64,000 nucleotides of DNA from NCBI RefSeq assembly GCF_036588685.1, contig NC_086373.1, positions 4,340,001 through 4,404,000 of the forward strand. The letters are read 5' to 3'. Numbering within the stretch: position 1 is the first letter of the stretch; every line of letters begins with the position of its first letter. Shown here piece after piece: positions 16,679-63,880 of this stretch. This DNA comes from Mytilus trossulus. Its lineage: Eukaryota. The position numbers were made by a program, and so were the translations under genes. A model generated the notes under the pieces. The model made no database searches. It saw only the letters and a list, made by a program, of their open reading frames with translations, and was not told the origin of the DNA.

Positions 16679-18100
16679 CAGAAATAAGAACAATTTAATC
16701 ATGGATGTCAAAAGCCATCACAGAACTTGCGACTCAGAGCTTTTTATGTTCCAGTAAAAATCAACTTAGATCCAAAGACAGTCGTTAGATTGATACAAAT
16801 TCCAGAAGAATATGCAGAGATGATAAAATCAAAGAAATCATATCAATGTTATAAAAAATATGATGTTCAAATCTTTCTAAAATTGAATTGGACTATAAAT
16901 ATTTGGAATAGAAAAGACAATTTATTACTTTTCATCCCAAATAAATTGCCATTATATACCAGTACATTAATATTTTATTTCTTCTCCAAACACCATGAAG
17001 CAAATAAAATTTGAGATTGTGTAATAAAATAAAATGACCATAAGGTTTTTAATTTTTTATTTATTTAAGGTGGATCATCAGTTTATTATATCACCTCAGA
17101 TTATGCTTTGACAAAAGAAATATTTTAACATGGTTTTTTTCAAAAATACAATAAAAAGTATGTGTCAATGTGCTATTTTCAAGCTACAAATCATGCAAAA
17201 TTGCCAAAATCTGCATAGGTATTTCATGAAAAAACACATTCATGTGAATAAAAAGAAATCTACAAGGTAGAAATGAGAAGAAAGAAAAAGAAAAAAATAC
17301 CTCTGAACTTGTTTTTTTTTACTGCAAATAATAAATTAAAATTTCCTTATCATACCGGTTTTAAAAAATATACATTAAAGTTGTCTCCCCTTAGATGGAT
17401 AGGGTTAAAAATTGAATATGAAAAAAATATATCTGGTATTTGTTTAAACATTTTAGATACTGTTAGAAATCACTTTTTTTCCCAAAAAAAGTCTTGACAC
17501 TTACTGGTAGATTGTAGATGTGTCATAATTTGCAGTCTGAGGCAATACAAGACCAATTGTGTATTGCTATTGTACAATCAAAGATGGTGGTATACAGTGA
17601 ATTTGGGTTTTAATACTCTTATTGTTCATGTCTAAATATTTGTTTTTTGTTCACTGTTTCTATTCAGGTAAATAGATAAATGGCAATTTAAACCTTTACA
17701 TTTGTATTTGTTGAAGTCCATATCATATCCACTTGAGTTCTAAGATGTCCCCTGATGTGATTCGTGATAACAAATTTTCAAGGTGTCCATTCATTCATGT
17801 TTCTGTCAGATGTCTGCCTGTCTAGGTTAACTATTGTGCTGCTTGCCATATATTTTTTATTGAAAATTAGTGCTAATCAATTTTTTTTGAGAGAGTTATG
17901 CACCTTAGAAATTTCAAATTTATTTTTTTTAAAAATGCATTCTAATAAGCCCTCTCAAGCCTACATTTTTCATAAGAATATTATGAAATCTATACTGTAA
18001 TGAATATTATTCAGTTACCTTAATTATGTTATTAGGAAGTTCTAAGTTTATCTGTTAGGAAGTAGGCAAATGTTTAAATCCTTTCACTTTCGTTTCTTAA

Positions 18101-18900
18101 AGTCATAAGAAACCTCAAATCAAAAAAAAATAATGCATATGTTTTTTATAACTCAATCGATAGTTTTCATTGTAAAACTTATGTACATATACTTTTTTCT
18201 GAAGAAAATTCTTTAATTTATTCATATTTAGAAGAAGTTTACTTTATTTGAATTGCTTCCTTCCAGCAAGCAATTCCCGGGATATATTTTCCGTATGCAA
18301 GGTGACCTCAGTGTGACCCATCTCGTAAAAATCCGGTGACCACAATACGCATGGATGTCCTTAAAATAAACTATTATCTGAATTTACATGTTAAACACGT
18401 GCTCAATTTCCATGCTTTTTTGTTTATTTTTCGTCAATTGTTGACAAACAGGTGACAATCGTAATTGAGGAAACGATGATAGTCCGTTGGACGGGGACGA
18501 TAAATGGCTGGCCCGTGTTAAGAGAGAGCCACATCTCTTGCACGTTAAAGACACCCTTGTAGATTTCGAAAAAGAGTAGGCTAATGCCGCTACAAGGCAG
18601 CACTCGCACCCGCAAAGTGGAAAGGGATTAATATAAGTTGCAAAACTTGTTTCCCAATGCACTATAAATAAATATGTTTAAATTAATCGTTAAACTTTGG
18701 CTTTAAAACACGAACTTTAATTACCTGCCATATTTTCACAACAACACTGACCGATTGAAAAAAAAATTGACGATTATACGAACTTTACACGAAAAAAATG
18801 ATCAATTCGAGCACAGAAGACTAAGTTTATGATGTTTGTATGCATTGGTTTAAAAATTGGAAGAACATTATTGTTCACCGGTCACTCGTTTCTTATGACT
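18101..18900. mobile_element. TTAA-specific MITE (Kolobok-like) inserted in the 5' LTR
   Basis: Perfect 13-bp TIR AGTCATAAGAAAC / GTTTCTTATGACT, TTAA TSD on both sides, absent from the 3' LTR. RR termini fit Kolobok rather than piggyBac (YY). Confidence 0.85.
18465..18682 (+). mobile_element. 5'-truncated Deu/Nin-domain SINE nested in the MITE
   Basis: Highly similar to 63102-63320; contains ggggacgataaa...tgcacgttaaagacaccc, the Nin/Deu core signature. Confidence 0.75.
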
Positions 18901-19696
18901 TTAATGAAGTACCTTGATATCGGTTGTAATACAGAAAATGATTTCCGAAGTTTTGGTACTGGTTCCAATCCTATCTATTTGAAAAGTAAGTGCTTGATAT
19001 TAAATTACTTTAGGTGTTATATTAAAACGTAACAGTGATACGGAATATATTTATTTCTGTTAAGAGATTATATGCATTTTGGTTAGAGATAATTCTAGAA
19101 TATTAGTAGAGTTTCTCACAATGTTAATCAGTTCGGTCCTCAGAGCTCCTAGAGTAAAGACTAAAGAAAAGGTAATTATAACTATTTCTGAAAAAGAAGT
19201 AGCTTTCCAAGGACCTTTGGTTAAACTTTTATAAGCAAGAGCCAATTGTTCTATCTGAATAAGGTGGTGACATATTGTCCTGTGGTATATAATTAAGGTG
19301 ACAAAGTGGTACTGTCCCTTTGGACCAGTGACACCTTGGCCCTGAATAAGGACCAGAGGCGCACTGGAAACCATAATTCCATATTACCTTTGAATCAAAG
19401 AGCTTAAGTACTGTAAGGCAAATAGGTTTATAGTCATATATCATATACTATTGAAGTAAGGTTAAGTCATAGTTAGGTTAAGGGTTTCATTTTGTATAAT
19501 TACCGGAAGTAATATTTTGTTAAATGTTATTAGGCTTTTATATCTAAGGTTGAATTAGTTCTTGAAACACGTTACCATTTGTAAGGGTTAGCGAACGATA
19601 CACAACAAATCCAGGGAAGTAAACCTGGTACGGATCTACGGGTACATAAAGTACTATCTGGCGTGTAGGACCCCCTCTGCACGTTACGAAATTTGA

Positions 19697-19712
19697 TGGC
19701 AGCGGTGGGATT
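19697..19712 (+). promoter_or_regulatory. Primer-binding site complementary to the tRNA-Leu 3' end
   Basis: tggcagcggtgggatt is the reverse complement of aatcccaccgctgcca; it lies 8 nt after the 5' LTR. Confidence 0.85.
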
Positions 19713-19899
19713 TGTTCGCTGTATAGTTGGTTAGTTGGATATATCAGTCAGTATAGTCGGACATCCATTTGTTTTATAAATATGGATAAAATTGAAAATT
19801 TATCTGCCCAATTGTAACCTCATGATATTCAAATTGTTAAGAAAAACCCCGTCAACTTGTCCAATAAGAAATCACCAGGGAAAGCCACAGGGACAAGCA

Positions 19900-22800
19900 T
19901 GAGTAGCGTAGAGATATTAAGGTTGAAACGTACGATAAGTCAGGTGATTGGAATGACTACCGGCCACATTTTGAGTCTTGTTCCTCTATTAACGGTTGGG
20001 ATAAGCTCGAGAAAGGGTTGTACTTAGCGGCTTCCCTTGGAGATCAAGCTCAAGGTGTTCTTGGGGATTTATCAGATGACAAGAAAAGTCATTTTGAACA
20101 GTTGGTGCGATCACTAGAAGAGAGGTTTGCTCCCCCAAATTAGTCAGAGTTGTACCAGAAACAATTGAAAGAAAGGAAGCAGAGGGCTTCAGAGACGCTT
20201 CCTGAGGTAGGACAAACGATGCGCCGGCTGGTGAATAAAGCGTACCCCACTGCTCCAGGAGAAGTCAAAGAAACATTGGCTAAAGAATACTTTTTGGATG
20301 CATTGATTAATACGGAAATGCGTATAAAAATCTAACAATCCCGTCCCCCTGACCTTAATTTTGCTATATGTTTAGCTGTAGAGTTAGAAACATTTTACAA
20401 GGCAGAAAAGCAATTTGAAGTAGGGAAAGCCCATTTATGAGCTGTAGACAATGATGAACAGGTGGTTAGAGTCTGAGTATTATGATAGGTTGTCGGATAA
20501 AATAGAGGGCCTGTTAGCAGCATTTAATGATCAATTGGCAAATATGCGTAAAGAGTTAGATGAATTTAAGAATAAATCCAACATGTCTGGACCAGTTGAT
20601 AGGTCAAATTTCTTTGCTATAATTGTGGTAAAACCGGCCACATGGCTAGAAATTGTAATGCTCCTAGAAATAGGAGCCAGAACAACCAAGGATCACCAGG
20701 ACCTTCGGTTAGGCGTACGAACAACCGTAGTAGTACACGGAAACGTAAATCTTTGTACCTCTGCTCTAATACTCTTAATAATGAGGCAGGGCTCTATGTA
20801 GAGTTATTTATAAATGGAATTCATGCCAAGTTTCTTATTGATACAGGGGCTACAGTTAGTTTGGTGTCGGATACTCTATTTGAGAAATTAAAATCCAGTG
20901 ATAGGCCAGGGGTAAGGCAGGTCACCCAGGAAATAATAGCAGCTAATGGTGAGTCTTTAAAAACAGTAAGGCACTGTTTTTTTAAGCGTGGTAGTTTTCA
21001 CACTGTCATTGAAGGTGTAATAGCAGGTTTGTCAGTGGAAGGTATTCTTGGGCTATATTTTCTGCAGACAAACGGTCGAAAGTTGATTTAGGCAATAAAG
21101 TACTAGTAATGGAAAGGGATAATCAACACATACCTTTGTTACTGCAGGGAAAGTTAGGCGTTTTTCGGGTGGCAGTCAAAGATAAAGTTAGCATAGCCCC
21201 AAGGTCAGAGGTAGTAATCCAGGGTGAAGTACTGAACTATGATTCAGCTGTTCAGGTGACTGGCATTATTGAACCCAGTGAAGAATTCCTTGATAGAGGA
21301 TAGGCTCTTGTAGGGAAGTCTGTTCTTATGTCTGATAAATCAGTTCCTGTTAGGCTATTAAATCTAAGTGACAGTGTCCAAGTATTAAATGTCGGTACTG
21401 TGGTCGGAAATCTTAGTGGAGCGGAAGTGGTTAGTCAGGTGGACAATCACAAGGATTATGCCCTTACTAATGAAATGGAAAAATTATTAGATAGGTCTAG
21501 TGAGAATCTTGGACATGGACAAAAAGACAAGGTCACAGAGTTGTTATTGGAATTCAAGCATCTTTTTGCCGCTTCACATTCGGATCTGGGACAAACAAAT
21601 ATTGTGAAACACAGGATTGGCACTGATGCTGCAAGGCCAATAAAGCAGCCACCACGGCGCACCCCAATAGGTCTTAGGGAAGAGGTAGATCAACATATTA
21701 ACGATATGTTGGAGAGAAACATTATTGAGCCCTCGGAAGGACCATGGTCCTCCGGAATATTGAGAAAGAAAGATGGGACCACTATGTTTTGCGTAGACTA
21801 TAGACAGTTAAACACATGTACTATCAAAGACGCGTATCCTTTGCCCCGAATTGATTATTCGCTTGAGCAGTTGTCAGGAAACGAGTGGTTTTCAACTTTG
21901 GATTTATGTTCTGGATATTGGCAGGTAGAAGTAGAGCCATCAGATCGTCATAAAACAACCTTTGCCTCCCGGAAGGGTCTTTATCAGTTTCGCTGTATGC
22001 CATTTGGTCTGGTAAACGCCCCTGCCACCTTTGAGCTTCTTATGGAGAATGTTATGGCAGGGCTCCTAAGGGACATTTGTCTCATATTTCTAGATGATAT
22101 CATAGTTATGGCTAAGAATTTTGATGAAATGATACATAATTTACGCCAGGTTTTTGTAAAGTAAGAAGGGGCAGGGCTTAAACTCAAACCCAAAAAAAGT
22201 GTCATTTGTTTGCTTAAAAGGTAACTTTTCTCGAACATGTTGTTTCTGAATCGGGTGTTGCTACCGACCCCGATAAAACTAAGTGTATAAGGGAATGGCC
22301 TGTTCCCCAGAACGTGACAGAGCTCAGACCCTTCTTGGGTTTGTGTGGTTATTATAGCCGGTACATAATACATTTTTCAGATACGGCTAAGAACTTACAC
22401 CAAATGACCGAAAATGGTCGCGAATTTCTGTGGAACAATGATAGTCAGGAGGCCTTTGAAAAGCTGAAAGGCAAATTAATCAGTGCCACAGTCCTCAGTC
22501 ATCCCAACTTCTCCCAAACATTTATTTTTGATGCGGATGCAAGTAACAGAGCGATAGGTGGTGTTTTATCACAGGTTATTGATGGCGAGGAACATGTTAT
22601 TGCATATGAGAGTAGGACCCTTTCAAAAACAGAGCGCCGTTATTGTATTACAAGGCAGGAACTGCTAGCCGTGGTCCATTTTGTTAAACATTTTCGGAAA
22701 TGGAAACACGGGAATATCTATTGGGAGATATATACTCCGTTAGCAGGTGCTGCTGGAATGTTGCTACTTCACAATTGAAAAGCTGAAATCATCTCTTTTG

Positions 22801-23588
22801 TCGTAAAGTTTTGTTTTCGATCGACCCTCATTGTCAATTTCTAGATGTAAGTCAATATATGAAGCCGACTTGACTGTATCTGTAGTATTCTTTATCTTTT
22901 ACTAAGTGGACAGAGAGTCATCCCATGCCCAACATTGAGGTAACTACAGTTGCAAATATTCTTATGACTGAGGTTATTTCTAGGTTTGGGGTACCAACTA
23001 TTATCCATTCCGATCAAGGTAGTCAATTCGAGAGCCACCTGTTTAAGGAGATGTGCAAGTTGCTTCAGATAGAAAAGACCCGGACGACTCCTCATCAACG
23101 AAATCTGACGGGATGGTTGAACGATTAAATAAAACTCTTGCTACCATGCTCACGGGGTATGTAAATGAATATCACTCCAATTGGGACGTATTACTACCTT
23201 ATGTCATGATCGCTTATCGGTCCTCTCAACATGAGACCACTGGTTACACCCCCAATAGATTAATGTTGGGAAGAGAACTGTCTACCCCCATGATCCATAT
23301 AAGGTGATTAAGATAAACTCAAGTGTCACATACACCGTCAATTGTGGGCGTAAGGGAGCGGGTCAAGTAATACATGTTGATAGGATGCGACCTTGTCCCC
23401 AACAAATACTAAGGGGAGAACTTGTTGACGAACAAAGTCCTGAGAAAACAGGAGAGCTAGAAACAGAGATTCATGACAAAGAAGTTATCATTGACTCTTT
23501 GCCCTTATTAGATCTAGATGATCATGAGGATGTAAACAATGATAGACCAAGGAGGTTTATAAAACCTCCATCGTGGATGAAGGACTAG
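19900..23588 (+). pseudogene. Disrupted gag-pol (gag with CCHC knuckle, aspartic protease, RT, RNase H, partial integrase)
   Basis: CYNCGKTGHMARNC (about 20615), FLIDTGATVS, FCVDYRQLN...DAYPLPRID...LDLCSGYWQ...MPFGLVNAPATF...FLDD, DADASNRAIGG, IHSDQGSQFES...GMVERLNKTL. There are multiple stops and frameshifts, and the RH/INT junction is deleted. Confidence 0.93.
22695..22865 (-). mobile_element. Penelope-like RT fragment inserted antisense in Gypsy pol
   Basis: The - strand reads SYIDLHLEIDNEGRSKTKLYDKRDDFSF; it overlaps in sequence with 43660-43729 (gcaggtgctgctggaatg). Confidence 0.7.
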
Positions 23589-23690
23589 ACTACGAACGGT
23601 AAATTATGTGTTTTGAGATGTAAATAGATAATGTAAATATGTATTTTTGATATTAAATATGTTTTATTATTTTAGATCTAAATTTGAAAT

Positions 23691-25157
23691 ATGATAAACA
23701 CAAAGACAACGCATAAGCTTACTAAATATTACTAGTATTTTATATACATATACATTTTCATGTATCTACAATCTGTCGATACCTGTAACATGTTTTTCTC
23801 TGGCTGTTTATGACGTCTTTACACTAAATCCATTGTATGTTGGATGTGTACGGATTGATTGTGTAGTCTTAGAGGCATGATTTTTTTATTAGTTGTAAGT
23901 GGCTTTGAACTAGCTGTCAGATAACTGCGAGTACTCTCAGATTTGTTCATTGTGTCTTTTTGTGTCGGGATGTATAAGTACCCGGCCACGTCCACTTGTA
24001 CTTTTTGTCTATCTGATGAGTTAAGCCTTTTTCAACTGATTTTTACAGTTCGTTCTTATGTTGTACTGTTATACCACTGTCCCAGGTTAGGGGAGGGTTG
24101 GGATCCCGCTAACATGTTTAACCCCATCACATTATTTATGTATGTGTCTGTCCCAAGTCAGGAGTCTGTAATCCATTGGTTGTCGTTTGTTTATGTGTTA
24201 CATATTTGTTTTTCGTTCATTTTTTTAAATAACTAAGCTCGTTAGTTTTCTCGTTTTAAATGTTTTCCATTGTCTTATCGGGGCCTTTTATAGCTGACTA
24301 TGCGTAATGGGCTTTGCTCATTGTTGAAGGCCGTACGGTGACCTATAGTTGTTAATGTTTGTGTCATTTTGGTCTTTTTATGGGTAGTTGTCTCATCGGC
24401 AATCATACTACATCTTCTTTTTTTTATATAAACACAAAGACAACGCCAGGAAAATCCTCACAGGAAATTTACAGATGTCCTGTCTGTGGTGAAAGGTTCC
24501 TCACCGCAAAAGAGTGGAGTGATCATATAATTACATGTTGTGAGAAAAAGCGGGTATCAACATCTTTCATCTGCAAAGAACCGGCGTGCACCTATGCAGC
24601 CCTCTTGGAAAGAGATCTTATGAGTCACAGCAAGAGAAAACACCAGAAATCTGCAGTAGCTGAAAGTGATACTGATTCCGAAGAAATTCCATTTAGCCAG
24701 AGACCGACTGGGTCATTTTGCGTTGATATAACGTCGGTCACTCCAGAGGTCGCAACAAGTCCGGAGATGGCACCAGTGAGGAAGGCAACTAAACCTCTGC
24801 CAGTGTTTGGCTCGACCAAGAAGAGACAGCTGATGGAACACCTGGCTGATAGTGTGGTTCCGGTTAACGTTCCAAGGACTTCTGCAACCGCAGTCAGAAG
24901 TAATTTGTTAGTGGCTTCTTCAATAACCTCACCGGTATTATTCACAAATCCAGTGGCACAAACACGTGTAACTTCGTCGCTTGGAGGTGGCGTGTTTCTT
25001 CAGCCGACATGTGGTCAGGTTGTTCCTGCCAAGAGGATGATTGAAACCCAAACCCCCTAGGATGATCGCTCATCACCATCTTAAAGGGACCGTTAGAACC
25101 TGGTATGAGGAAGGAATAAAGGTGGAGGAGACCACTGAAGAAACTTGGGACGATTGA
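23691..25157 (+). pseudogene. Gypsy accessory ORF3: two-zinc-finger protein, interrupted by a 715-bp insertion and one frameshift
   Basis: ATG at 23691 (MINTKTTP) rejoins 24447 after removing the insert and one TSD copy. YRCPVCGERF...HIITC and FICKEPACTY...HSKRKH fingers. A +1 shift near 25057 extends it to RTWYEEGIKVEETTEETWDD*. It lies between integrase and the 3' LTR. Confidence 0.75.
23713..24427 (+). mobile_element. Unclassified abundant retroposon-like repeat with a 19-bp TSD
   Basis: ataaacacaaagacaacgc duplicated at 23694-23712 and 24428-24446. Its 3' part (ggcaatcatac.acatcttctttttt) recurs at about 6590-6720, 16030-16205 and 38490-38600. Confidence 0.8.
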
Positions 25158-25734
25158 GTAATCATTATACAATGTGTGAGCATATATTCTACATGGAAGC
25201 CAATGAGGCTGGATATCGTTACCTCGTTCCAGAGCATGTGGACGAATAGAGGCAACAGTGGTATACCGCTGTTCAAAACTCACAAATCCATGGACAAAAA
25301 ACAAAATCGGGGTAACAAACTAAAACCGAAGGAAGCGCATTAAATATAAGAGGAGAACAACGACACAACACCGAAACGGACCAGGCATCAGACAAAACAC
25401 CACGAGAATAACAAATATAACATGAAAACCATATACATGAATTTGGGATAGACAAGTACCGTGCCACGTCTTATCTAAAAAATAAGAGAAAACACAAACG
25501 ACTCAAAGTTAAAATGCAACACACACAGAAACGAACAATAATATAACAATGGCCATCTTCCTGACTTGGTACAGGACACTTTTAAAGGGGAATAAAAGTC
25601 AGTTATAAGTTTAGAACGTTTGCAGTCTTAGTTATCAGACTGTGAGAGGACACATTATTTGATTTTGAGTGTACTATATGGTAAAAGATACCCGATATTA
25701 TTATTGTGTTTTTGTTTTCATTTTATAGTATGAC

Positions 25735-25860
25735 CGTCTGGTCGGAGTGGGGACGTTAAATCCGATGCCCCGTGTTCAGGAAATGACACGTCATGTGCAC
25801 GTTAAATATCCCTTTGTAGAGTTCGTTTAGAGTAGGCTCCTAGGGGCCGCTACATAAGCT
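25735..25860 (+). ncRNA. Deu/Nin-domain-like structured RNA module in the Gypsy 3' non-coding region
   Basis: gtcggagtggggacgttaaat...cccgtgtt...tgcacgttaaatatccctttgtaga...agagtaggct...gccgctaca is collinear with the SINE core at 18481-18600 and 63119-63240, with compensatory stem changes. Confidence 0.6.
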
Positions 25861-26252
25861 AACTTTTGCAACCTGGATTATTTCGGAAGATAAAGTTTCC
25901 AGTGACATTTTAAATTGATACATGCTTTTGGTATTTAAATTTCATATAGTAAGGGTATTGCGTTCAGTAGTTTTGTTTGGAATCCATTACCCCTTGGTAG
26001 TAGTATTGGTAGGTGCTGGTTGAAATCTGAGCATATGGTAGATGTATTGCGTACGAGCTGATAAGGGGAACATTATTTTGTTCTATTTATTTTGTCTAGT
26101 ACCATGGAGAGTACTTTGCATTTTGAGAACATGCTCAGTAGTTACTTTCGAATAGATAGTTGATAGAGTTTGGGTCTGAAAAAGGGCCAGAGGTCGATGA
26201 TTTAGCTCGAGTATTGTAAATGCGGGGCGCATTTCTGTTGAAGCGTGGGTAA

Positions 26253-27256
26253 TGTGACGAATATCATTCAGTTACCTTAATTATGTTATTAGGAAGTTCT
26301 AAGTTTATCTGTTAAGAAGTCGGCAAATGTTTCAATCCTTTCACTTTCGTTTGTAATTTACCTCTTATTTCACATGTCAATGTGACTGAGTGTTTTTAAA
26401 ATAAAGCATATTGTATTGTATTGTATTGTATTGTTTCTTAATGCAGTACGTTGATAACGGTTGTAATACGGAAAACGATTTCCGAATTTTTTGTACTGGT
26501 TCCAATCCCATCTAGTTGAAAAGAAAGGAATACATTTATTTCTGCTTAGGGATTATATGCATTTTGGTTCGAGATTATTCTAGTATATAAGTAGAGTTTC
26601 TCACAACGTTTATCAGACCGACCGTGCAAGCGCTGTATAGCCAGTCAAGGTTGTTAAAAACTTGTTGTCTTAATCAGTTCGGTCGTCAGAGTTCCTAGAG
26701 TAAAGACTAAAGAAAAGGTAATTATAACTATTTCTGAATAAGAAGTAGCTTACCAAGGACCTTTGGTTTAACTTTTATAAGCAAGAGCCAATTGTTCTAT
26801 CTGAATAAGGTGGTGACATATTGTCCTGTGGTATATAATTAAGGTGACAACGTAATACTGTCCCTTTGGACCAGTGACACCTTGGTCCTGAATAAGGACC
26901 AGGGGCGCACTGGAAACCATAACTCTATATTACCTTTGAATCAAAGAACTAAAGTACTGTAAGGCAAATAGGTTTATAGTCATATATCATATACTTTTGA
27001 TTTAAGGTTAAGTCATAGCTCCAATAAAGCGTCCCTTGTGTTATGTTAAGGGTTTCATTTTGTATACTTACCAAAAGTAATATTTTGTTAATTGCTATTA
27101 GGCTTTTATACCTAAGGTTGAATTAGTTCAGGAAATACGTTACTATTTGTAAGGGTTAGCGAACGGTACACAACAAATCCAGGGAAGTAACCCTGGTACA
27201 GATCTACGGGTACTTAAAGTACTATCTGGCGTGTAGGACACCCCCTGCAAGTTACA
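26253..27256 (+). repeat. 3' LTR
   Basis: tgtgacgaatatcattcagttacc...gcaagttaca; preceded by gaagcgtgggtaa (PPT-like); carries small insertions not present in the 5' LTR. Confidence 0.92.
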
Positions 27257-28704
27257 ATACGAATGGTTTATATCAGTAATGTCTTACGCTCTTTTAAAGA
27301 TATTAACCTATATTATAGTTAACATTGTAAGCAGTGTATCCTTTAAATGGAAAATAGTGGATATGTTGTATTTTTTTATGGCATAGAATAACTAAATCCA
27401 CTTGGCATACTCAAATTAAAAGAAACAGAATCTTTGATGTAGGACTTCATCTCAAAAGCTCAGTGGGTTTCTGCCCTCAGCAGAACAATTGGTTGCTCCT
27501 GACTGCATACCCATGACAGCTGTTGGAACCTATTCCGGCTGTTCTACCTCTGTCTGTTGAGTCAAGGGCATATAGGAATTATCATGTCTGCCCTATCACA
27601 CTGTAGGTTTCTAGAGAACTTCTTTTCGAAATTAATTGATTTTTTAATAGAATGTTGGACCATTGGAGATACCTTTTTGGAAACTGATTGAACTTTTAAA
27701 GAAATGTTAAATACCATTTAAGACGGGTTTAGTTTGAGATTTTTCCTCATTTTTCACCTCTTCTGTTCCAGAGTAAAGGTACTTAATTGTTGAAAAATAC
27801 CAAATTTTGTAGTTTCTGAATTATAAATGGAGAAAACCTTTGTGAAATAGATTGAAATTGAATGTATTGGACTACTGAAGACAGTTTAATTTGATTTTCA
27901 TCATTTTAACTTTGACCATTCCAGAGTTATGGTACTCGATTGTTGGAAAAATTCAAAATTGTGCTGTTTCTGTTTGATGAATAGATATGACTTATTTGAA
28001 ATAGCTTGATTTCAATTGAATGTTATGAATAAAAAAAAGACAGGATATATTTGATTTTCTTTATATATATTCAATTCCAAAGTTATGGTACTTGTTTTTT
28101 TGGAAAACTTTAAATTTAGTGGTTTCTGTATAACTTTAATAAAGAATTTCTTTCTGAAACTTGTTGAAATTATTATTAAATGGATTGTACCATTTATCAA
28201 ATGCAAAGTTTTGATTTGCATTGTTTTCACTTACGTATATGTCGAAGTGTTTTTGGTAATTGGTAGCTGGATTTTTTCAAAAACCTTTTTTTATAAAAGG
28301 AGATGTGGTAGGTTTTCCAATAAGACAACTATCCACCAAAGTTCAAAGTTTGCTTCAGAATAATAAATAGATACGCCCTTTTTCATTGTGGCATCATTTA
28401 CTAAATCTCGATTGTCACTGGCATGATAGCTAAATTTCCAGGCTATACTGACGGTCATCTGTACCTTGAGAAGGCAAGTGTTCAACATCACATGTAATTC
28501 ATATAAACAGGGGGATTCAACCATATTTCCTCATATAAAAGCATGAGTTGTCAAATAAAAAAGAGGACAAAAAACCCTAGAACCGCCACCACGTCATTTT
28601 GTTTTTCCGAATAGCTTTAACATTTGGCACAACTTTTTGGAATTTTGGATCCTCAATGCTCTTCAACTTTGTATTTGTTTGGCTTTATAACTATTTTGAT
28701 ATGA

Positions 28705-29929: not shown

Positions 29930-32750
29930 TGTTACACTTCTGGTTTCTTGGTAGTGGTTAATTAAAAACCGGGCTGATCTTCTCTCTAGTTTCTGTATAT
30001 TAAGGTTGTAAACGGGTTCATAACTAAGAATGCATACTCAAGCAATGTTTAACTAGAGTTGTGAAGTATACAACTTTTGTTAGTTGTTGACTGTGATGCA
30101 GGTTTCCGAGTTTGGATTAAGGCTATAGTTAAATGTTTGTATTTTTAGATATATGCTTTCTCTGAGTGTTCGAATAATTGGTTCTAGACATTGTTACACT
30201 GCTGAATCAGCCATTCAATTCTAAATAATGTTCCTGGATATTATAACTTGTAGGGTGCAGTTTACGCATTTTGGTTACGCATAGAAGTTGGCTATGTTGA
30301 AATCCAATTTGACAATCATATTCCAATCTTATCAAGATGTTCTAGTCTTCTTGTGTTATTTTTCAAGTTATCCGTCTGAACAGAACACAGCCATCTGCAA
30401 ATAAATGAACTGTTAATGAATGTACATAGACAAGTATGTCGTTGGTAAAAAGTAGGAGCAGAATAATCCAAGAACGCTGCCCTATGGTTCTCCTGATTGG
30501 ACAGATGCAGTGTAAGATTTTTTCATATTATTATTCATTTATAGTACAGGCCTCGCAAGGGAGTATTAATTTATCCTACTGTTGTATGTTCGTGTCGATT
30601 TGAGAACAACAAATGTGGGAATCATAGTGAACCAGTGCTTCTTTCAAATAACGTCAAAACAAGTTTGAACAGCTATTGATGATGTATCACACCCTTTTAA
30701 ATGATTCAATGGTTGTTCAGCTTACTAGTCATGCTAATTGTTTGGACAGTGATTTCCAGAATCTGATAGTGTCTAGGAAAAAGAAGTATCGATATACTTT
30801 AGTGCTAGCATAAGGACTGAGAAATCGTGTTTTGTGTTCTCTTACTGATTGTCAATTTGTAGATGATAAGGCAATCTGTTTGTGTACTATATAAAACATG
30901 ATTACTTCACATTGAGCTCTCCATATCTTCCAATTTAGTGTCTGTAGCATAGTTAGTTTTTCTACATTCATTTGATACAAATGGTGCGCAACAGCGGTGT
31001 GTAGCTTCTAATTTGTTTATGTTGTCCTTAGTAATCGGATTCAATATGGTGCTAGAGTATTCCATAAGGCATAGTTATACATGTTATACTCGGACAGTTT
31101 GTTGTGGTTCTTTGAAGATAAGCTCCGGTGGAGTTGCTTTCTTTGCAATGTTATCAATGTATTCGTTCTAATTTAATGTTTTGTTTATGGAAACACAAAG
31201 ATATTTCGCCGAGACAACCTCCTCTATGATATAGCCATGGATGTTGTAGTTAACCTATGTTGAACTGAACTATGAGGAAAATTCAAAACGGTAATTCCCA
31301 AATCTAATGGCAAAATCAAATAGTGAAACACATCAAACGAATGGGCAACTACTGTCATATTCCTGACTTGGTACAGGAATTTTAAAATGATGAAAATGTT
31401 GGATTGAACCTGGTTTTTAGCACTAAACCACACAACTATCTATAGTGTAGAGAAGCGTGTTTGACGTCAGAATGTAAACGTCACACAGGAAAAGATATAG
31501 AATAATTTTGACGTTCAAAGTATTTTTAAAATTCTAATTTGACATGGGGAATGGTGGTAAACAGGGTTGAAAAAGTTTTGAAAGAACTAATTTCAGAAAA
31601 AGATCGAGATTTAAAATTATTCAGACGTTCTCTAGAATGCAGTCGTCTACGAAAAGTCTAACGTTTGATGATGACACATACTCTGGGAGGTCGCTAATAA
31701 AAACAAGAAACGTCAGCGAAAAAAGCTCTCTACCTTGTGGGACTAAATACTGTGCTGTCGAGATTTCTGATGATTTTCCTTCCAGGAGTACACATTGCTG
31801 TCTCGGCTATCCAAAAAATATTTCTGCCATTTAATTGTTGGCTCTCTAATGCCATAATGGTCAGCTTTATACAATAGTCCACATGCACTAGACGTTCTGT
31901 CAATAGTATAAAAAATATTGGAAATGGGAAGAAAATAGTGTCCACAGGCACTAGACATTCTATCAATAGTTTTATAATACTATTGACACAACGTCTAGTG
32001 CCTGTGAATAGTCGCTCTTGCTGGACTTTGTGAAAAGCCTTTGGAAAGTCTGTTTGCTCTTTATCGTCTATGTTTTGAACTAGGTCATGAATTGTGAGAA
32101 TTTGTAAGAATTCACAAGATTGTTCTTTCCTAAAACCATGGTAAGCATTAGTCTCGATGGAGTGACTTTCTATGTGTTTTCATCTTCGCTAGCCAAGGGT
32201 TACGATCCCGGGCACTCCCGCGGGAGTGGATCGTAACCCTTGGCTAGCGAAGTTGTGATGTGAGAGAGAGAGAGAGAGAGTGAATCGTAACCCTTGGATA
32301 GCGAAGATGATGTGTTTTATGATATTGGTAAAGATGATATCTTCAAGTACTTTATCTAATATAACAATTTTTGAAGTAGTTTGTTTTATGCCTGGCTACG
32401 ACCCCCGTTCTTGAGTATTTGAACTTCATATGCACTTTTCCTATCAAATGGTATAAATGTACTTGTAAATGGTCGACGGATTTTTGAAAATTGGTGCAAG
32501 TATGTATTTAAGGATTTTTTTTATTACAATAATTTTGTAGAGATTTTCATCTGGTCTTGTTGCTTTATGTCTATTAAGATTGACAGCAGTTTGTGTATTC
32601 CGTTTTCCAATGTTACGATGAAGTGTTTTTTCATATGTTGGTATGTATCTGATTTCTTTTCTATGCGATAGTCTCTTCTTTTTGCTGTTAAATTCTGAGG
32701 AAAACGAAGTATGTTTGCCTTCATTTTATAATCCGAAAATGTGCGGCAAA
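29930..32750 (-). mobile_element. Highly decayed CR1/L2-group LINE RT fragments (at least two pieces, interrupted by other repeats)
   Basis: - strand remnants: HGFRKEQSCE...DFPKAFHKV (about 32030-32150), KYLCVSINKTL and MEYSSTILNP (about 31040-31210), SGEP*GSVLG and HLFAD (about 30390-30500). Confidence 0.65.
32181..32309. mobile_element. Tiny foldback MITE with a duplicated right end and (GA)n
   Basis: catcttcgctagccaagggttacgatcc ... ggatcgtaacccttggctagcgaag, then (GA)n and a second atcgtaacccttggatagcgaagatg. Confidence 0.7.
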
Positions 32751-52900: not shown

Positions 52901-53222
52901 GATATGTTCCTTACGTCGTAACTACAATCCCCTTCCCTTTCATGAATTTGACCTACCGAATTATACTATTTACCGGATTTGTAATCACATAAGCAACACG
53001 ACGGGTGCCGCATGTGGAGCAGGATCTGCTTACCCTTCCGGAGCACCTGAGATCACCCCTAGTTTTTGTTGGGGTTTGTGTTGTTTATTCTTTAGTTTTC
53101 TATGTTGTATCATGTGTACTATTGTTTTTCTGTTTGTCTTTTTCATTTTTAGCCATGGCGTTGTCAGTTTGTTTTAGATTTATGAGTTTGACTGTCCCTT
53201 TGGTATCTTTCGTCCCTCTTTT
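52901..53222 (+). mobile_element. Penelope-like 3' UTR fragment
   Basis: Reverse complement of 43181-43505 with few differences. Confidence 0.75.
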
Positions 53223-54648
53223 ATATCTCTATTAGGTTATAAGATATCTCTATAAGTTAATAAGATATCTCTTTAAGTTAATAAGATATCTCTATAAGTT
53301 AATAACATATCTCTAAAAGTTAATAAGATATCTCTATTAGTTTATAAAATATATCTATTAGTTTATAAGATATCTCTATAAGTTAATAAGATATCTCTAA
53401 AAGTTTATAAGATATCTCTATTAGGTTATAAGATATCTCTATAAGTTAATAAGATATCTCTAAAAGAAAAAAAGATATCTCTATTAGTTTATAAGATATC
53501 TCTATTAGTTTATAAGATATCTCTATAAGTTATTAAGATATCTCTATTAATTAATAAGATATTGTATAAAGTATATAAGATATCTTACATCTTTATAAAG
53601 ATATCTTTTAAATACATATGTTATAAGATATCTTATTAATTAATAGAGATATTTTATAAACTAATAGAGATATCTTATTAACTTATGGAGATATCTTATA
53701 TGTTAAATAAGATATCTTTATAACCAATTAGATAAGATATCTATATAAGTTAATAAGATATCTCTAAAAGTTTATAAGATATCTCTATTAGGTTATAAGA
53801 TATATCTATAAGTTAATAAGATATCTCTTTAAGTTAATAAGATATCTCTAAAAGTTTATAAGATATCTCTATTAGTTTATAAGATATCTCTATAAGTTAA
53901 TAAGATATCTCTTTTAATTAATAAGATATCTTATAAAGTATATAAGATATCTGACTTCTTTATAAAGATATCTTATTAATTAATAGAGATATCTTATAGA
54001 CTAATAGAGATATCTTATTAATTAATAGATATATCTTATAAACTAATAGAGATATCTTATTAACCTATGGAGATATCTTATTAAGTAAATAAGATATCTC
54101 TATTATTAACTATATAAAAGATATCTTATATAGTTAATAAGATATCTTATAAATGGATAGAGATATATTATATTTTAAATAAGATATCTTATATATTTAA
54201 TAAGATATATTTATAAACATTTTAATAAGATATCTTATTTAATAAATCAGATATCTCAATTAATATATAAGATATCTCAATTAGTTTATAAGATATCTTA
54301 TTTAACTAAATAAGATATCTCGAAATTGAATAAATATAATAACAGCGTGCCATAACCCTAACACTTTCTTATTCAATTTTAAATGTTTTCACTGATATGA
54401 TAATTTTTATGTTTTTGAATGGCATATTAATAGTAAAAAAAAAGAAAGTAGCAAAATAAGTACAAAGAAAACATCAGAAATAAATAGAAATAGAAAATAA
54501 TGCCCCTGTGGTCATATTTTATATAGGACTAGAGACTAGAAAGGTGAAAAAAATGTATTCAACACAATTTGTCATAGCATGCAATTTTTAAAAGGTATAC
54601 ACAAACATAAAGTATTTGTCTACATTTTTTGTTCTTTTTAATTTTTAG

Positions 54649-59464: not shown

Positions 59465-60025
59465 GTAAATAGTAACATCACACCTGAAGGTTATGAACTA
59501 TCTTGGATTTTATCTATTAACATTGAATTCTTTCAGCAAGATTATACTTCAAATATTTTACATTTATTTCAAGAAAAATAGACAATAAAAAATAAGCATT
59601 TAAAAAGAAACCTATTCCTTCCTACCAAAAATAACAATACCACATGTGACTTACATTTATATATAACAAAACGTTTGACAGTGCTTGGATTTTGTCAACA
59701 TCTTTTATAAAATATTTTTTTTTTTACTGTTTTTCTATTAAAGCAATTTATGTGTGACAAGTCATTTATGCAACTGTAGATTTTGAGTACTGTTATCTTT
59801 TTTTAACTATAGATTGCATTTTTTTTTAAAGATTCTAGGAACAAATAAGTTTCTAAAAATCTCAATCCTTCAATATCAGATATAAATATGCACCTTTAAA
59901 TTTTATAAGAAATTGTTATCTAAATACATATACAACCAGATGTTTGAGACAGCAACCTATTTAATCAAACATGATATCTAGAGGTCACTTTCAATATTTA
60001 AAAAAACATAAAAACATAACGGAAA

Positions 60026-63000
60026 GATAAACTCTGATAGGGATTCTGACTAACACCTAGATAAACTCTGACAAAGATTCTGACTAACATTCAGATAAAC
60101 TCTGACAGGGATTCTGACTAACATTCAGATAAACTCTGACAGGGATTCTGACTAACACCCAGATAAACTCTGACAAAGATTCTGACTAACACCTAGATAA
60201 ACTCTGACAAAGATTCTGACTAACATTCAGATAAACTCTGACAGGGATTCTGACTAACACCTAGAAAAACTCTGACAAAGATTCTGACTAACATTCAGAT
60301 AAACTCTGATAGGGATTCTGACTAACACCCAGATAAACTCTGACAAAGATTCTGACTAACATTCAGATAAACTCTGACAGGGATTCTGACTAACATTCAG
60401 ATAAACTCTGACAGGGATTCTGACTAACATTCAGATAAACTCTGACAGGGATTCTGACTAACACCTAGATAAACTCTGACAAAGATTCTGACTAACATTC
60501 AGATAAACTCTGACAGGGATTCTGACTAACACCTAGATAAACTCTGACAAAGATTCTGACTAACACCTAGAAAAACTCTGACAAAGATTCTGACTAACAC
60601 CTAGAAAAACTCTGACAAAGATTCTGACTAACATTCAGATAAACTCTGACAGGGATTCTGACTAACACCTAGAAAAACTCTGACAAAGATTCTGACTAAC
60701 ATTCAGATAAACTCTGACAGGGATTCTGACTAACACCTAGATAAACTCTGACAAAGATTCTGACTAACATTCAGATAAACTCTGACAGGGATTCTGACTA
60801 ACACCTAGATAAACTCTGACAGGGATTCTGACTAACACCTAGATAAACTCTGACAGGGATTCTGACTAACACCTAGATAAACTCTGACAAAGATTCTGAC
60901 TAACATTCAGATAAACTCTGACAGGGATTCTGACTAACATTCAGATAAACTCTGATAGGGATTCTGACTAACACCTAGAAAAACTCTGACAAAGATTCTG
61001 ACTAACATTCAGATAAACTCTGATAGGGATTCTGACTAACACCCAGATAAACTCTGACAAAGATTCTGACTAACATTCAGATAAACTCTGACAGGGATTC
61101 TGACTAACACCCAGATAAACTCTGACAAAGATTCTGACTAACATTCAGATAAACTCTGACAGGGATTCTGACTAACATTCAGATAAACTCTGACAGGGAT
61201 TCTGACTAACACCTAGATTAAGTCTGACAGGGATTATGACTTACACCCAGATAAACACTGACAGGGATTCTGATTAACACCTAGATACACTTTGACAGGG
61301 ATTCTGACTAACACCTAGATTAACTCTGACAGGGATTCTGACTAACACCTAGATAAACTCTGACAAAGATTCTGACTAACATTCAGATAAACTCTGACAG
61401 GGATTCTGACTAACATTCAGATAAACTCTGATAGGGATTCTGACTAACACCTAGAAAAACTCTGACAAAGATTCTGACTAACATTCAGATAAACTCTGAT
61501 AGGGATTCTGACTAACACCCAGATAAACTCTGACAAAGATTCTGACTAACATTCAGATAAACTCTGACAGGGATTCTGACTAACACCCAGATAAACTCTG
61601 ACAAAGATTCTGACTAACATTCAGATAAACTCTGACAGGGATTCTGACTAACATTCAGATAAACTCTGACAGGGATTCTGACTAACACCTAGATTAAGTC
61701 TGACAGGGATTATGACTTACACCCAGATAAACACTGACAGGGATTCTGATTAACACCTAGATACACTCTGACAGGGATTCTGACTAACACCTAGATTAAC
61801 TCTGACAGGGATTCTGACTAACACCCAGATAAACACTGACAGGGATTCTGATTAACACCTAGATACACTCTGACAGGGAATCTGACTAACACCCAGATAA
61901 ACACTGACAGGGATTCTGACTAACACCTAGATAAACTCTGACAGGGATTCTGACTAACACCTAGATAAACTCTGACAGGGATTCTGACTAACACCTAGAT
62001 AAACTCTGACAAAGATTCTGACTAACATTCAGATAAACTCTGACAGGGATTCTGACTAACACCTAGATAAACTCTGACAAAGATTCTGACTAACACCTAG
62101 ATAAACTCTGACAGGGAATCTGACTAACACCTAGATAAACTCTGACAAAGATTCTGACTAACATTCAGATAAACTCTGACAGGGATTCTGACTAACACCT
62201 AGATAAACTCTGACAAAGATTCTGACTAACACCTAGATAAACTCTGACAGGGAATCTGACTAACACCTAGATAAACTCTGATAGGGATTCTGACTAACAC
62301 CTAGATAAACTCTGACAGGGATTCTGACTAACATTCAGATAAACTCTGACAGGGATTCTGACTAACATTCAGATAAACTCTGACAGGGATTCTGACTAAC
62401 ACCCAGATAAACACTGACAGGGATTCTGATTAACACCTAGATACACTCTGACAGGGAATCTGACTAACACCTAGATAAACTCTGACAGGGATTCTGACTA
62501 ACACCTAGATAAACTCTGACAGGGATTCTGACTAACACCTAGATAAACTCTGACAGGGATTCTGACTAACACCTAGATAAACTCTGACAAAGATTCTGAC
62601 TAACATTCAGATAAACTCTGATAGGGATTCTGACTAACACCTAGATAAACTCTGACAAAGATTCTGACTAACATTCAGATAAACTCTGACAGGGATTCTG
62701 ACTAACATTCAGATAAACTCTGACAGGGATTCTGACTAACACCTAGATAAACTCTGACAGGGATTCTGACTAACACCTAGATAAACTCTGACAAAGATTC
62801 TGACTAACATTCAGATAAACTCTGACAGGGATTCTGACTAACACCTAGATAAACTCTGACAGGGATTCTGACTAACACCTAGATAAACTCTGACAGGGAT
62901 TCTGACTAACACCTAGATAAACTCTGACAGGAATTCTGACTATAACCTAGATAAACACTGACAAGGCTATTGACTTTCATCCAGATAAACATTGACAAAG

Positions 63001-63880
63001 GGACTACTAACACAAAGGTTCCTGGTTCGATTCCAGTTAGGGATGAAACTTTCAGGAACTCAATTTTCGGCTCTCCCTCGACACCATTTGCGAGTATTGT
63101 CTTGAGGAAACAATGATAGTCCGTCGGAAGGGGAAGATAAATGGCTGACCCGTGTTAAGAGAGAGCCATATCTCTTGCACGTTAAATACACCCTTGTAGA
63201 TTTTGAAAAAGAGTAGGCTAATGCCGCTACAAGGCAGCACTCGGACCGGCAAAGTGGAAAGGGATTAATATAAGTTGAAAAACTTGTTTCCCAATCCACT
63301 ATAAATATATATGTTTAAACTATTGACAGGGTTTCTAACTTACACCTAGATAAATAATGTAAAAGCTTCTCTGATTTACACATAGATAAAAACTGAAAAG
63401 GCTTCTAACTTACACCTGAAATAATGCTTCTGACATACACCTAGATAAACACTGACAAGCCTTCTCTGACTTACACCTGAAATAATTCTTCTGATATACA
63501 CCTAGATAAACACTGACAGGCCTTCTCTAACTTACACCTGGAATAATGCTTCTGTCATACACCCAGATAAACACTGACAAGCCTTCTCTGACTTACACAT
63601 AGATAAACACTGGAAAGGCTTCTAACCTAAACCTAAAATAAGGCTTCTGATTTACACCTAGATAAAGACTGACAATGCTTCTGACTAAGGCCTGAATAAA
63701 CACTGACAAAACTATTGACTTACACCTAGATAACCACTGACAAGGTTTCTGACTTATACCTATATAACACTGACTGGGCTTTCGACTTACACCTAGATAA
63801 ACACTGACAAGGCTTCTGACTTATACCTAGATAAACACTGACAGGGCTTCCGACTAACACCTAGATAAACACTGACAAGG
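60026..63880 (+). repeat. 34-bp intronic minisatellite (homogeneous to about 62950, degenerate beyond), interrupted by a SINE
   Basis: Unit gataaactctgac(aggg/aaag)attctgactaaca(ccta/ttca/ccca); period 34 (60026, 60060...). Confidence 0.95.
63005..63320 (+). mobile_element. tRNA-derived Deu/Nin-domain SINE (A box truncated)
   Basis: Pol III B box ggttcgattcc at 63024-63034, Nin/Deu core, AT-rich tail; same family as 18465-18682. Confidence 0.8.

What the first reader, a model, noticed from the sequence alone, without database searches (positions are those of the whole stretch)
23661..25157. Gypsy element carries a third ORF in the env position: a zinc-finger protein behind its own splice acceptor
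Seen: after the integrase stop (23588) there is a polypyrimidine/AG acceptor (ttttattattttag, 23675) and an ATG 16 nt later. Removing a later 715-bp insertion (19-bp TSD) and one +1 frameshift restores a ~245-aa ORF. It has a short MINTKTTP start, a C2HC finger, a C2H2 finger, an acidic patch, a P/S/T-rich linker, an ETQTP motif and an ordered-looking C-terminus (RTWYEEGIKVEETTEETWDD). There is no signal peptide or TM helix, so it is not env. Known: errantiviruses express env from a spliced subgenomic RNA at this position, and TQT is the LC8/DYNLL1 binding core. Inference: an element-encoded nucleic-acid-binding accessory factor (transactivator, anti-silencing or trafficking adaptor), analogous to complex-retrovirus accessory genes.
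Basis: partly seen in the sequence, partly recalled or inferred. Interest (0 to 1): 0.8.

Follow-up and report, generated by a model that had tools for sequence, protein, structure and literature searches.

The report
Histone-mimic zinc-finger gene in bivalve retrotransposons
A family of retrovirus-like jumping genes in mussels and other bivalves carries, where a virus would have its envelope gene, an extra gene for a zinc-finger protein whose front end resembles the tail of histone H3, which suggests that these elements regulate their own chromatin.

Summary
The window copy is a decayed Gypsy element, but young copies elsewhere in the genome carry the same third ORF open (243 aa). So do three further families with 99.6-100% identical LTRs and nine elements in metagenome contigs. 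dN/dS is 0.09-0.48. One assembled contig joins an LTR donor to the predicted acceptor. A profile that left out the N-terminus and the fingers found 111 protein clusters; all 13 clusters with a named host (of 30 looked up) are bivalves.

New here: the N-terminus sits in register with histone H3 residues 1-9 (K4 and T6 in 32 of 34 unfiltered hits; T3 27, K9 24, R8 21; R2 in none). The LC8-type QT motif is conserved before a C-terminal hairpin (48 of 57). The protein is not Env, is not a formal H3TM, and lacks the NuRD motif. ORF3 is dispensable in cis.

Best reading: a dimerising nuclear zinc-finger adaptor that acts on its own family's chromatin. Binding, target and sign are untested. Thirteen of 20 more distant Gypsy elements in this genome carry other zinc-finger third ORFs.

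The parts
17996..19687 (+). 5' LTR, interrupted by an insertion of about 800 bp (18096-18900); 4-bp target-site duplication at 17992-17995 / 27257-27260
19169..19177 (+). splice donor in the LTR (exon ends at 19171); the matching site of family A is the one joined to the acceptor
19694..19712 (+). primer-binding site complementary to tRNA-Leu(AAG)
19809..23588 (+). broken gag-pol (CCHC knuckle, protease, RT, RNase H, integrase); one frame of 1651 codons in a family A copy
23661..23675 (+). polypyrimidine/AG splice acceptor
23691..23712 (+). ORF3 start; first codons of the H3-like N-terminal motif
23713..24427 (.). 715-bp secondary insertion (dispersed repeat), bounded by a 19-nt direct repeat
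24476..24538 (+). finger 1, C-x2-C-x12-H-x3-C
24572..24643 (+). finger 2, C2H2
24662..24685 (+). acidic patch (most homologues carry an acidic W-x(2,3)-DPG motif here; family A does not clearly)
24779..24826 (+). conserved R-K-x-T-x-P-x-P-V motif followed by a basic cluster (possible NLS)
25040..25057 (+). LC8-type QT motif; a stop follows in this copy
25080..25157 (+). C-terminal beta-hairpin segment, out of frame in this copy
25247..25595 (.). second secondary insertion (dispersed repeat)
25735..25815 (+). conserved non-coding core, shared by mussel families A-E and kept in ORF-less derivatives
26253..27256 (+). 3' LTR, about 90% identical to the 5' LTR

Best explanation
ORF3 is an element-encoded accessory gene of one bivalve Gypsy clade. 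Shown: it is kept under purifying selection, sits behind an acceptor, and can be joined to a short LTR exon that has no ATG in family A, so its own Met is the first start. Inferred: after Met removal the protein begins with a free H3-like tail (small-x-T-K-x-T-x-R-K). It enters the nucleus through the basic cluster, dimerises through LC8 and the C-terminal hairpin, and binds DNA with finger 2, probably repeated motifs in its own LTR. It then offers the H3-like tail and the acidic aromatic motif to H3K4 readers, writers or erasers. Most likely effect: it keeps its own family's LTR transcribed (transactivator or anti-silencer) and can work in trans.
For: Open ORF3 in young elements of four families. 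dN/dS 0.09-0.48, like gag-pol at 0.32-0.60. Junction contig. Donor-like site 73-85 nt after TATA in 4 of 4 families. In 34 hits found without using the N-terminus and not filtered by motif: small first residue 32, T3 27, K4 32, T6 32, R8 21, K9 24; H3 1-10 from this genome scores highest of 5575 background windows, 4.32 against 3.18 for the next. K stays at residue 5 in 16 of 17 while the first Cys lies at 12-32, so the motif is tied to the N-terminus and not to the finger. Finger 2 has K/R at -1, N/Y/D at 3 and R at 6, the base-contact pattern of DNA-binding fingers (general knowledge). QT motif 48 of 57. Some members carry other C-termini, including an Ikaros/hunchback-like finger pair (name recalled). 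LTRs of families A-D hold family-specific repeated motifs.
Against: No binding, localisation or effect was measured. R2, central to most H3 readers, is absent (0 of 34), and positions 2, 5 and 7 are conserved towards non-H3 residues (N/K, I/T/V, P/K). T-P-x-K/R, a CDK-type site, explains part of the motif in 16 of 34. A profile of the first 20 residues did not list H3 among 29 PDB matches (dominated by the Cys pair). The splice rests on one contig with 17 LTR letters, from a run only guessed to be RNA; another contig runs unspliced through the acceptor. An ORF3-less family also has a 7-of-9 donor-like site. ORF3-less lineages with long open pol exist and outnumber their ORF3-bearing sibling 5 to 1. 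Nothing fixes the sign of the effect. No LTR motif was matched to a finger.
Confidence: 0.45

Rival explanations
1. Self-repressor. Same anatomy, opposite sign: the H3-like tail hooks a repressive enzyme, as SNAG domains hook LSD1, and limits the family's own copy number.
For: An N-terminal H3 mimic plus C2H2 fingers is the SNAG layout (PMC5066116, passages). Derivatives that lack ORF3 have spread: two family A copies share one deletion junction, and five ORF3-less siblings stand against one ORF3-bearing copy. ORF3-bearing families are low in copy number (7 DNA matches for family A, a lower bound).
Against: The SNAG residues R, S, F after the first Pro are not present. The internal NuRD motif is not met. 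The acidic W motif looks more like an activation motif (inference). Loss is also expected if the protein is supplied in trans.
Confidence: 0.2
2. Particle or integration adaptor. The protein rides with the cDNA complex, uses LC8/dynein for transport and tethers the complex to chromatin (analogy to MLV p12, recalled).
For: Conserved LC8-type motif, basic cluster and chromatin-like tail.
Against: LC8 more often acts as a dimerisation hub independent of dynein (PMC7861614, passages). Other C-termini stand in place of the QT motif and hairpin in some members. Elements without ORF3 still insert.
Confidence: 0.13
3. Rev/CERV-like export factor for the unspliced genomic RNA, acting on the conserved core 3' of ORF3.
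For: Same position and spliced expression as CERV (PMC10309623, passages). A structured core is kept in families A-E and even in minimal non-coding derivatives, and is absent from the ORF3-less autonomous families.
Against: The core is absent from 7 of 7 metagenome ORF3 elements whose 3' interval was read, and from L183. No CERV-like domains. An H3-like tail and DNA-type recognition residues are not needed for export.
Confidence: 0.1
4. The N-terminal motif is not an H3 mimic but a CDK-regulated basic arm or an unrelated N-terminal binding motif on an otherwise ordinary element-encoded transcription factor.
For: P at position 7 in 19 of 34 and T-P-x-K/R in 16 of 34; R2 never present.
Against: T-K-x-T is present in 27 of 34, including members with K, A or V at position 7; the register is fixed to the N-terminus; one member (P0081) begins with the first four H3 residues unchanged.
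Confidence: 0.1
5. Passenger: a captured host gene fragment without a role for the element.
For: Dispensable in cis. RefSeq lists such proteins as ordinary genes.
Against: Purifying selection, 111 clusters at under 50% identity sharing five motifs, and confinement to one integrase branch.
Confidence: 0.02

Closest known systems
CERV of Cer1 (C. elegans Gypsy/Ty3), PMC10309623 (passages)
   Same: Non-Env ORF in the env position, spliced mRNA, nuclear, predicted to multimerise.
   Different: No shared domains (CERV has H, M and G domains and shares its first half with Gag). CERV's shown role is RNA export. It has no C2H2 pair or H3-like tail.
SNAG-domain zinc-finger factors (SNAI1, GFI1, INSM1), PMC5066116 (passages)
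   Same: N-terminal H3-tail mimic followed by C2H2 fingers.
   Different: Host genes with a different motif; ORF3 keeps H3 T3, K4, T6, R8, K9 and lacks R2.
H3 N-terminal mimicry proteins (H3TM), PMC8166343 (passages)
   Same: Met-cleavable first residue and K4 at the true N-terminus.
   Different: The definition requires R2; ORF3 has N, K or L there.
VANC anti-silencing proteins of VANDAL transposons, PMC6719617 (passages)
   Same: Accessory, family-specific transposon protein acting through short repeated motifs in the element (proposed, not shown, for ORF3).
   Different: Plant DNA transposons; no homology was seen or tested.
Non-envelope ORF3s of bdelloid LTR retrotransposons, PMC5408684 (abstract and passages)
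   Same: Family-specific third ORFs after pol, gained and lost, typically spliced.
   Different: GDSL, DEDDy, coiled-coil and TM types; the word 'zinc' does not occur in the main text.
ZNF512/ZNF512B, PMC11602157 (passages)
   Same: C2HC finger followed by a C2H2 finger; among ESM neighbours at 0.93.
   Different: Four pairs against one; its NuRD motif needs K/R where ORF3 mostly has P; homology not shown.

Membership tests
Gypsy/Ty3 LTR retrotransposon | LTR pair, PBS, target-site duplication | tested here: met
Gypsy/Ty3 LTR retrotransposon | order gag-PR-RT-RNase H-IN | tested here: met
Named mollusc Gypsy clade (C-clade, MolGy1-18) | placement in an RT/RNase H tree with reference elements | not testable with these tools
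   no reference sequences on hand; own integrase tree only
Errantivirus-type env | signal peptide, TM anchor, fusogen homology | tested here: not met
   highest hydropathy 1.38 in 17 proteins; no Env family among the 25 of 34 Pfam families shown; models show two fingers and a hairpin
Errantivirus-type env | expression from a spliced subgenomic RNA using an LTR donor | tested here: inconclusive
   1 contig in 1 of 3 presumed RNA runs, 17 letters on the LTR side, none in the fourth run laid as a DNA control
H3TM | Met-cleavable small residue at position 1 | tested here: met
   32 of 34
H3TM | R at position 2 | tested here: not met
   0 of 34; present in P0081, which lies outside that set
H3TM | K at position 4 | tested here: met
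   32 of 34
H3TM | binding to H3 reader domains | not testable with these tools
   bench test
SNAG domain | P, R, S, F and R, K residues needed for LSD1 binding | tested here: not met
   position counts
Internal NuRD interaction motif | RK(x)xxPx[K/R] | tested here: not met
   the conserved motif has P at the last place in 54 of 66; the pattern occurs somewhere in 13 of 92
LC8-binding protein | QT-anchored eight-residue motif in a disordered region | tested here: met
   48 of 57 against shuffle mean 12.6, max 23; low pLDDT around it; absent at that place in mussel families B, C, D
LC8-binding protein | physical binding to LC8 | not tested
ZNF512-type finger pair | homology of the C2HC/C2H2 pair | tested here: inconclusive
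   ESM score 0.93 with 125-139 shared features; fold searches give only generic two-finger hits, best Z 4.6, rmsd 5.0, 59 aligned
CERV/Rev-like export factor | a cis RNA element that travels with the gene | tested here: inconclusive
   core present in mussel families A-E and L177, absent in 7 metagenome ORF3 elements and L183; another element could serve there

The most novel reading that the evidence does not exclude
An animal LTR retrotransposon clade has, across bivalves, kept a true histone H3-tail mimic fused to family-specific zinc fingers, and uses it to redirect H3K4 machinery to or away from its own copies. This is one case of a wider, overlooked layer: many Gypsy lineages in the same genome carry their own zinc-finger regulator (with BTB, coiled-coil, LC8 or TatD modules) in the env position, now annotated as host transcription factors.
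Probability: 0.4. Interest if true: 0.92.

Novelty: new variant of a known kind. Interest (0 to 1): 0.8.

Why it matters
A 2019 review notes how few transposon-encoded anti-silencing systems are known and gives VANC in plants as the most convincing case (PMC6719617, passages). An animal retrotransposon protein with an H3-like tail, DNA-type fingers and a dimerisation motif gives a direct handle on whether retrotransposons regulate their own chromatin as complex retroviruses do. Natural sister lineages with and without the gene exist in one genome. It also bears on annotation: copies are listed in RefSeq as uncharacterised, 'REST-like' or 'HIVEP3-like' host genes, which can inflate zinc-finger gene counts in bivalves.

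Tried and rejected
Viral contig scan with the integrase alignment: 56 pattern matches, none confirmed. Rfam on two loci: no credible match. PDB sequence search with the N-terminal profile: H3 not listed. Foldseek and VIA searches: generic zinc fingers only; the hairpin was not searched alone. No run was on record as RNA; lack of cover over gag-pol in the presumed RNA runs is not used as evidence. The third word-based protein search was saturated (7999 candidates) and added no new genus. A full-length profile for the large library was rejected because a seven-finger host protein scored 45 bits on it. Complex prediction of LC8 with the C-terminal part was not available. My first guess that the core 3' of ORF3 is a SINE Deu-type domain (recalled) was dropped: the 4 other copies I read lie in non-coding LTR derivatives. 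NuRD-motif reading rejected. A 2-bit match of the hairpin to a CTCF stretch was treated as chance. The careful tree did not finish; a quick tree was used. Literature: six searches on accessory ORFs, histone mimicry, LC8 and anti-silencing in retrotransposons listed no paper describing this gene, and word finds in three mollusc/annelid LTR surveys gave 0 for 'ORF' and 'zinc'. Repbase entries, subscription journals and supplements were not seen and may annotate such ORFs.

Full report
1. Observation. The coordinates are right. The acceptor ends at 23675, the ATG is at 23691, and an exact 19-nt repeat bounds a 715-bp insertion. The host element runs from 17996 to 27256, with LTRs about 90% identical, a 4-bp target-site duplication, a tRNA-Leu(AAG) primer site and broken gag-pol. 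This copy is dead. I worked with natural copies from the same genome.

2. The gene belongs to the element. A DNA search gave 7 matches including the window. Two of the 6 others have ORF3 open at 243 aa; one of these has LTRs 99.9% identical and a single 1651-codon gag-pol frame. Protein searches found further families. B: 5 of 7 fetched copies open, LTRs 99.6-100%, RT about 60% identical to A. C and D: 2 of 2 open each, LTRs 99.8-100%. E and L177 are broken. The identical database protein is a RefSeq model of Mytilus trossulus, and homologues occur in three more Mytilus species. An integrase scan of metagenomes gave 75 loci, 40 with at least 600 bp downstream; 9 of those 40 carry a clear homologue directly after integrase and one a remnant. 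For 7 of them I printed the 3' interval; it leads within a few hundred bases to a purine tract and an LTR-like start (by eye). Their hosts are not given. In a quick integrase tree of 56 rows, all 14 ORF3-bearing rows fall inside one branch of 25 rows (SH-aLRT 92, no bootstrap), mixed with rows that lack it. That fits one gain and several losses but does not prove it.

3. Selection and expression. Pairwise dN/dS for ORF3 is 0.09-0.48 in 18 of 20 pairs (2 saturated); gag-pol gives 0.32-0.60 in 9 pairs. The pairs are not independent, and poorly aligned codons were dropped, which lowers dN. A pyrimidine tract with AG lies 0-15 nt before the ATG in 12 of 13 elements read (by eye), and a donor-like site lies 73-85 nt after TATA in families A-D. 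Of three presumed RNA runs and one DNA-sized control, one contig (run X4, depth 4.8) starts with 15 letters found only in the LTR, directly before that donor, and continues at the acceptor. The LTR exon of family A has no ATG. Limits: one contig, RNA status is a guess, another run has an unspliced contig across the acceptor, and an ORF3-less family scores 7 of 9 for a donor too.

4. Breadth. A profile of only the part after the fingers (11 sequences) found 111 clusters at E <= 0.001 among 1.84 billion representatives. Thirty were looked up; 13 name a host, all bivalves: Argopecten, Mizuhopecten, Pinctada, Saccostrea, Magallana, Ostrea, Mactra. I did not see the genomic context of these named proteins; several occur as near-identical copies on different chromosomes.

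5. Anatomy. AlphaFold gives two confident fingers, a C-terminal beta-hairpin and a disordered middle (pTM 0.25 and 0.36); fold searches return only generic two-finger proteins. Of the 101 new hits, 9 close to the training set were dropped, leaving 92.
(a) N-terminus: 43 of 46 hits with finger 1 have M-x-x-[TIL]-K-x-T upstream (shuffle mean 0.37, max 4). In the 34 whose source-called start lies 11-25 residues before the finger, with no motif filter: small first residue 32, T3 27, K4 32, T6 32, R8 21, K9 24. These five positions match histone H3 read from this genome; H3 1-10 is the best of 5575 background windows, and H2A, H2B and H4 do not fit. The motif keeps its distance to the Met while the distance to the finger varies. 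Against simple mimicry: R2 is absent (0 of 34), positions 2, 5 and 7 prefer non-H3 residues, 16 of 34 also fit a CDK-type site, and a PDB profile search did not list H3.
(b) Finger 2 has K/R at -1 (50 of 53), N/Y/D at 3 (51) and R at 6 (47).
(c) An acidic W-x(2,3)-DPG-type motif occurs in 50 of 92.
(d) R-K-x-T-x-P occurs in 66 of 92, followed by basic residues; it fails the internal NuRD consensus of PMC11602157 (passages).
(e) A QT-type motif lies within 45 residues before the hairpin in 48 of 57 (shuffle mean 12.6, max 23); LC8 binds such motifs and dimerises its partners (PMC7861614, passages). Mussel families B, C and D lack it at that place, and a few members carry other C-termini.

6. 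Dispensability. Of 19 further in-clade integrase loci, 2 have ORF3. Two family A copies share one deletion junction, two family C copies lack ORF3 similarly, and two lineages have long open pol and no ORF3; in one, five ORF3-less copies stand against one ORF3-bearing sibling. So ORF3 is not needed in cis. It may be supplied in trans, help only in some cells, or restrain the element.

7. Mechanism. Shown: an element-encoded, selected, non-Env two-finger protein with five conserved short motifs, probably spliced. Inferred: Met removal, nuclear import, LC8-aided dimerisation, binding to its own LTR, and use of the H3-like tail as hook or decoy for H3K4 machinery. I put 0.45 on a pro-element chromatin role, 0.2 on self-repression in the SNAG manner, 0.13 on a transport or tethering role, 0.1 on CERV-like export, 0.1 on a non-H3 meaning of the tail, and 0.02 on a passenger. 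The export reading gains from a conserved non-coding core 3' of ORF3 in mussel families, which even non-coding derivatives keep. It loses because 7 metagenome ORF3 elements and L183 lack that core.

8. Comparison and novelty. It works like a complex-retrovirus accessory gene, sits like CERV (PMC10309623, passages) and is built like a SNAG factor (PMC5066116, passages), but is a member of none: not Env, not H3TM by the R2 rule (PMC8166343, passages), not SNAG, not NuRD-motif. Non-Env third ORFs are known in rotifers (PMC5408684, abstract and passages), without zinc fingers. An eLife survey of env-carrying Gypsy elements has no occurrence of 'zinc' (PMC13524379, passages). Six searches and word finds in three LTR surveys (PMC6238403, PMC9679248, PMC8556966) turned up no description. 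PMC8220671, PMC13228809 and PMC13269885 (passages) did not bear on it. Repbase, closed journals and supplements were not seen. Two earlier notes of this scan describe different third ORFs in other genomes (unchecked).

9. Wider pattern. Thirteen of 20 more distant Gypsy elements in the same genome carry other finger ORFs after pol; 10 of 12 re-fetched are bounded by near-identical LTRs; three end in BTB/POZ and one in TatD. The finding thus looks like one case of a general, unannotated class of retrotransposon-borne zinc-finger regulators.

10. Verdict. Real, element-encoded and bivalve-wide; a new variant of a known kind. Interest 0.8. The function is inferred from anatomy alone.

Noticed in passing
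L191, L193-L196, L200, L203-L208, L210 (10-kb versions L224-L235): 13 of 20 more distant Gypsy elements in this genome (integrase 36-47% identical) carry other Cys/His-finger ORFs right after pol, most behind a pyrimidine/AG tract. 10 of 12 re-fetched lie between LTRs that are 98.6-100% identical. Three end in a BTB/POZ domain and one in a TatD nuclease domain, over Pfam cut-offs; others end in coiled-coil-like or TQ motifs.
   Followed up: partly
L118, L121, L128, L131, L163 (metagenome contigs): Finger ORFs after integrase here too; L118, L128 and L131 group with L195, L205 and L208 in the integrase tree; L163 has several finger ORFs in a row.
   Followed up: partly
window 25735-25815; L244-L247: A conserved core of about 80 nt with predicted stems (3 of 22 pairs with changes on both sides) and a possible pseudoknot (by eye). 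It is kept in non-coding LTR derivatives that have only LTR, PBS, core and 3' region, which suggests a cis signal for replication or packaging. No Rfam match.
   Followed up: partly
L104:5433-5957, P0095, P0113, P0134: An Ikaros/hunchback-like finger pair (name recalled) stands at the C-terminus in place of the QT motif and hairpin; L098, L099, P0062, P0120 and P0123 have a third, beta-rich C-terminus.
   Followed up: no
L172, L188, L174, L185, L190, L175-L184: ORF3-deleted derivatives with shared junctions, and two ORF3-less lineages with long open pol, inside the ORF3 clade.
   Followed up: partly
LTRs of L008, L033, L072, L073: The promoter lies about 270-340 nt into the LTR, followed by 600-850 nt with family-specific repeated 7-10-mers.
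   Followed up: no
L169 (G000:C2): Tandem arrays of tRNA-Leu(AAG) genes at 1.29-kb spacing, 239 pattern matches; ARAGORN also calls a tRNA-SeC between them.
   Followed up: no
L211-L215 (G000:C8): Five full-length LC8/DYNLL matches without coding introns in two clusters.
   Followed up: no
L199:2803 (oriented), L109:1085-2782: An SGNH/GDSL-like ORF (by eye) 2 kb after one integrase, and a 566-aa ORF of unknown type after another.
   Followed up: no
window 59889-63100 and 53200-54300: A 34-bp tandem array (87 overlapping copies) and a 21-bp array with inverted halves.
   Followed up: no
window 31571-32179: Fragments that look like a non-LTR reverse transcriptase on both strands (by eye).
   Followed up: no
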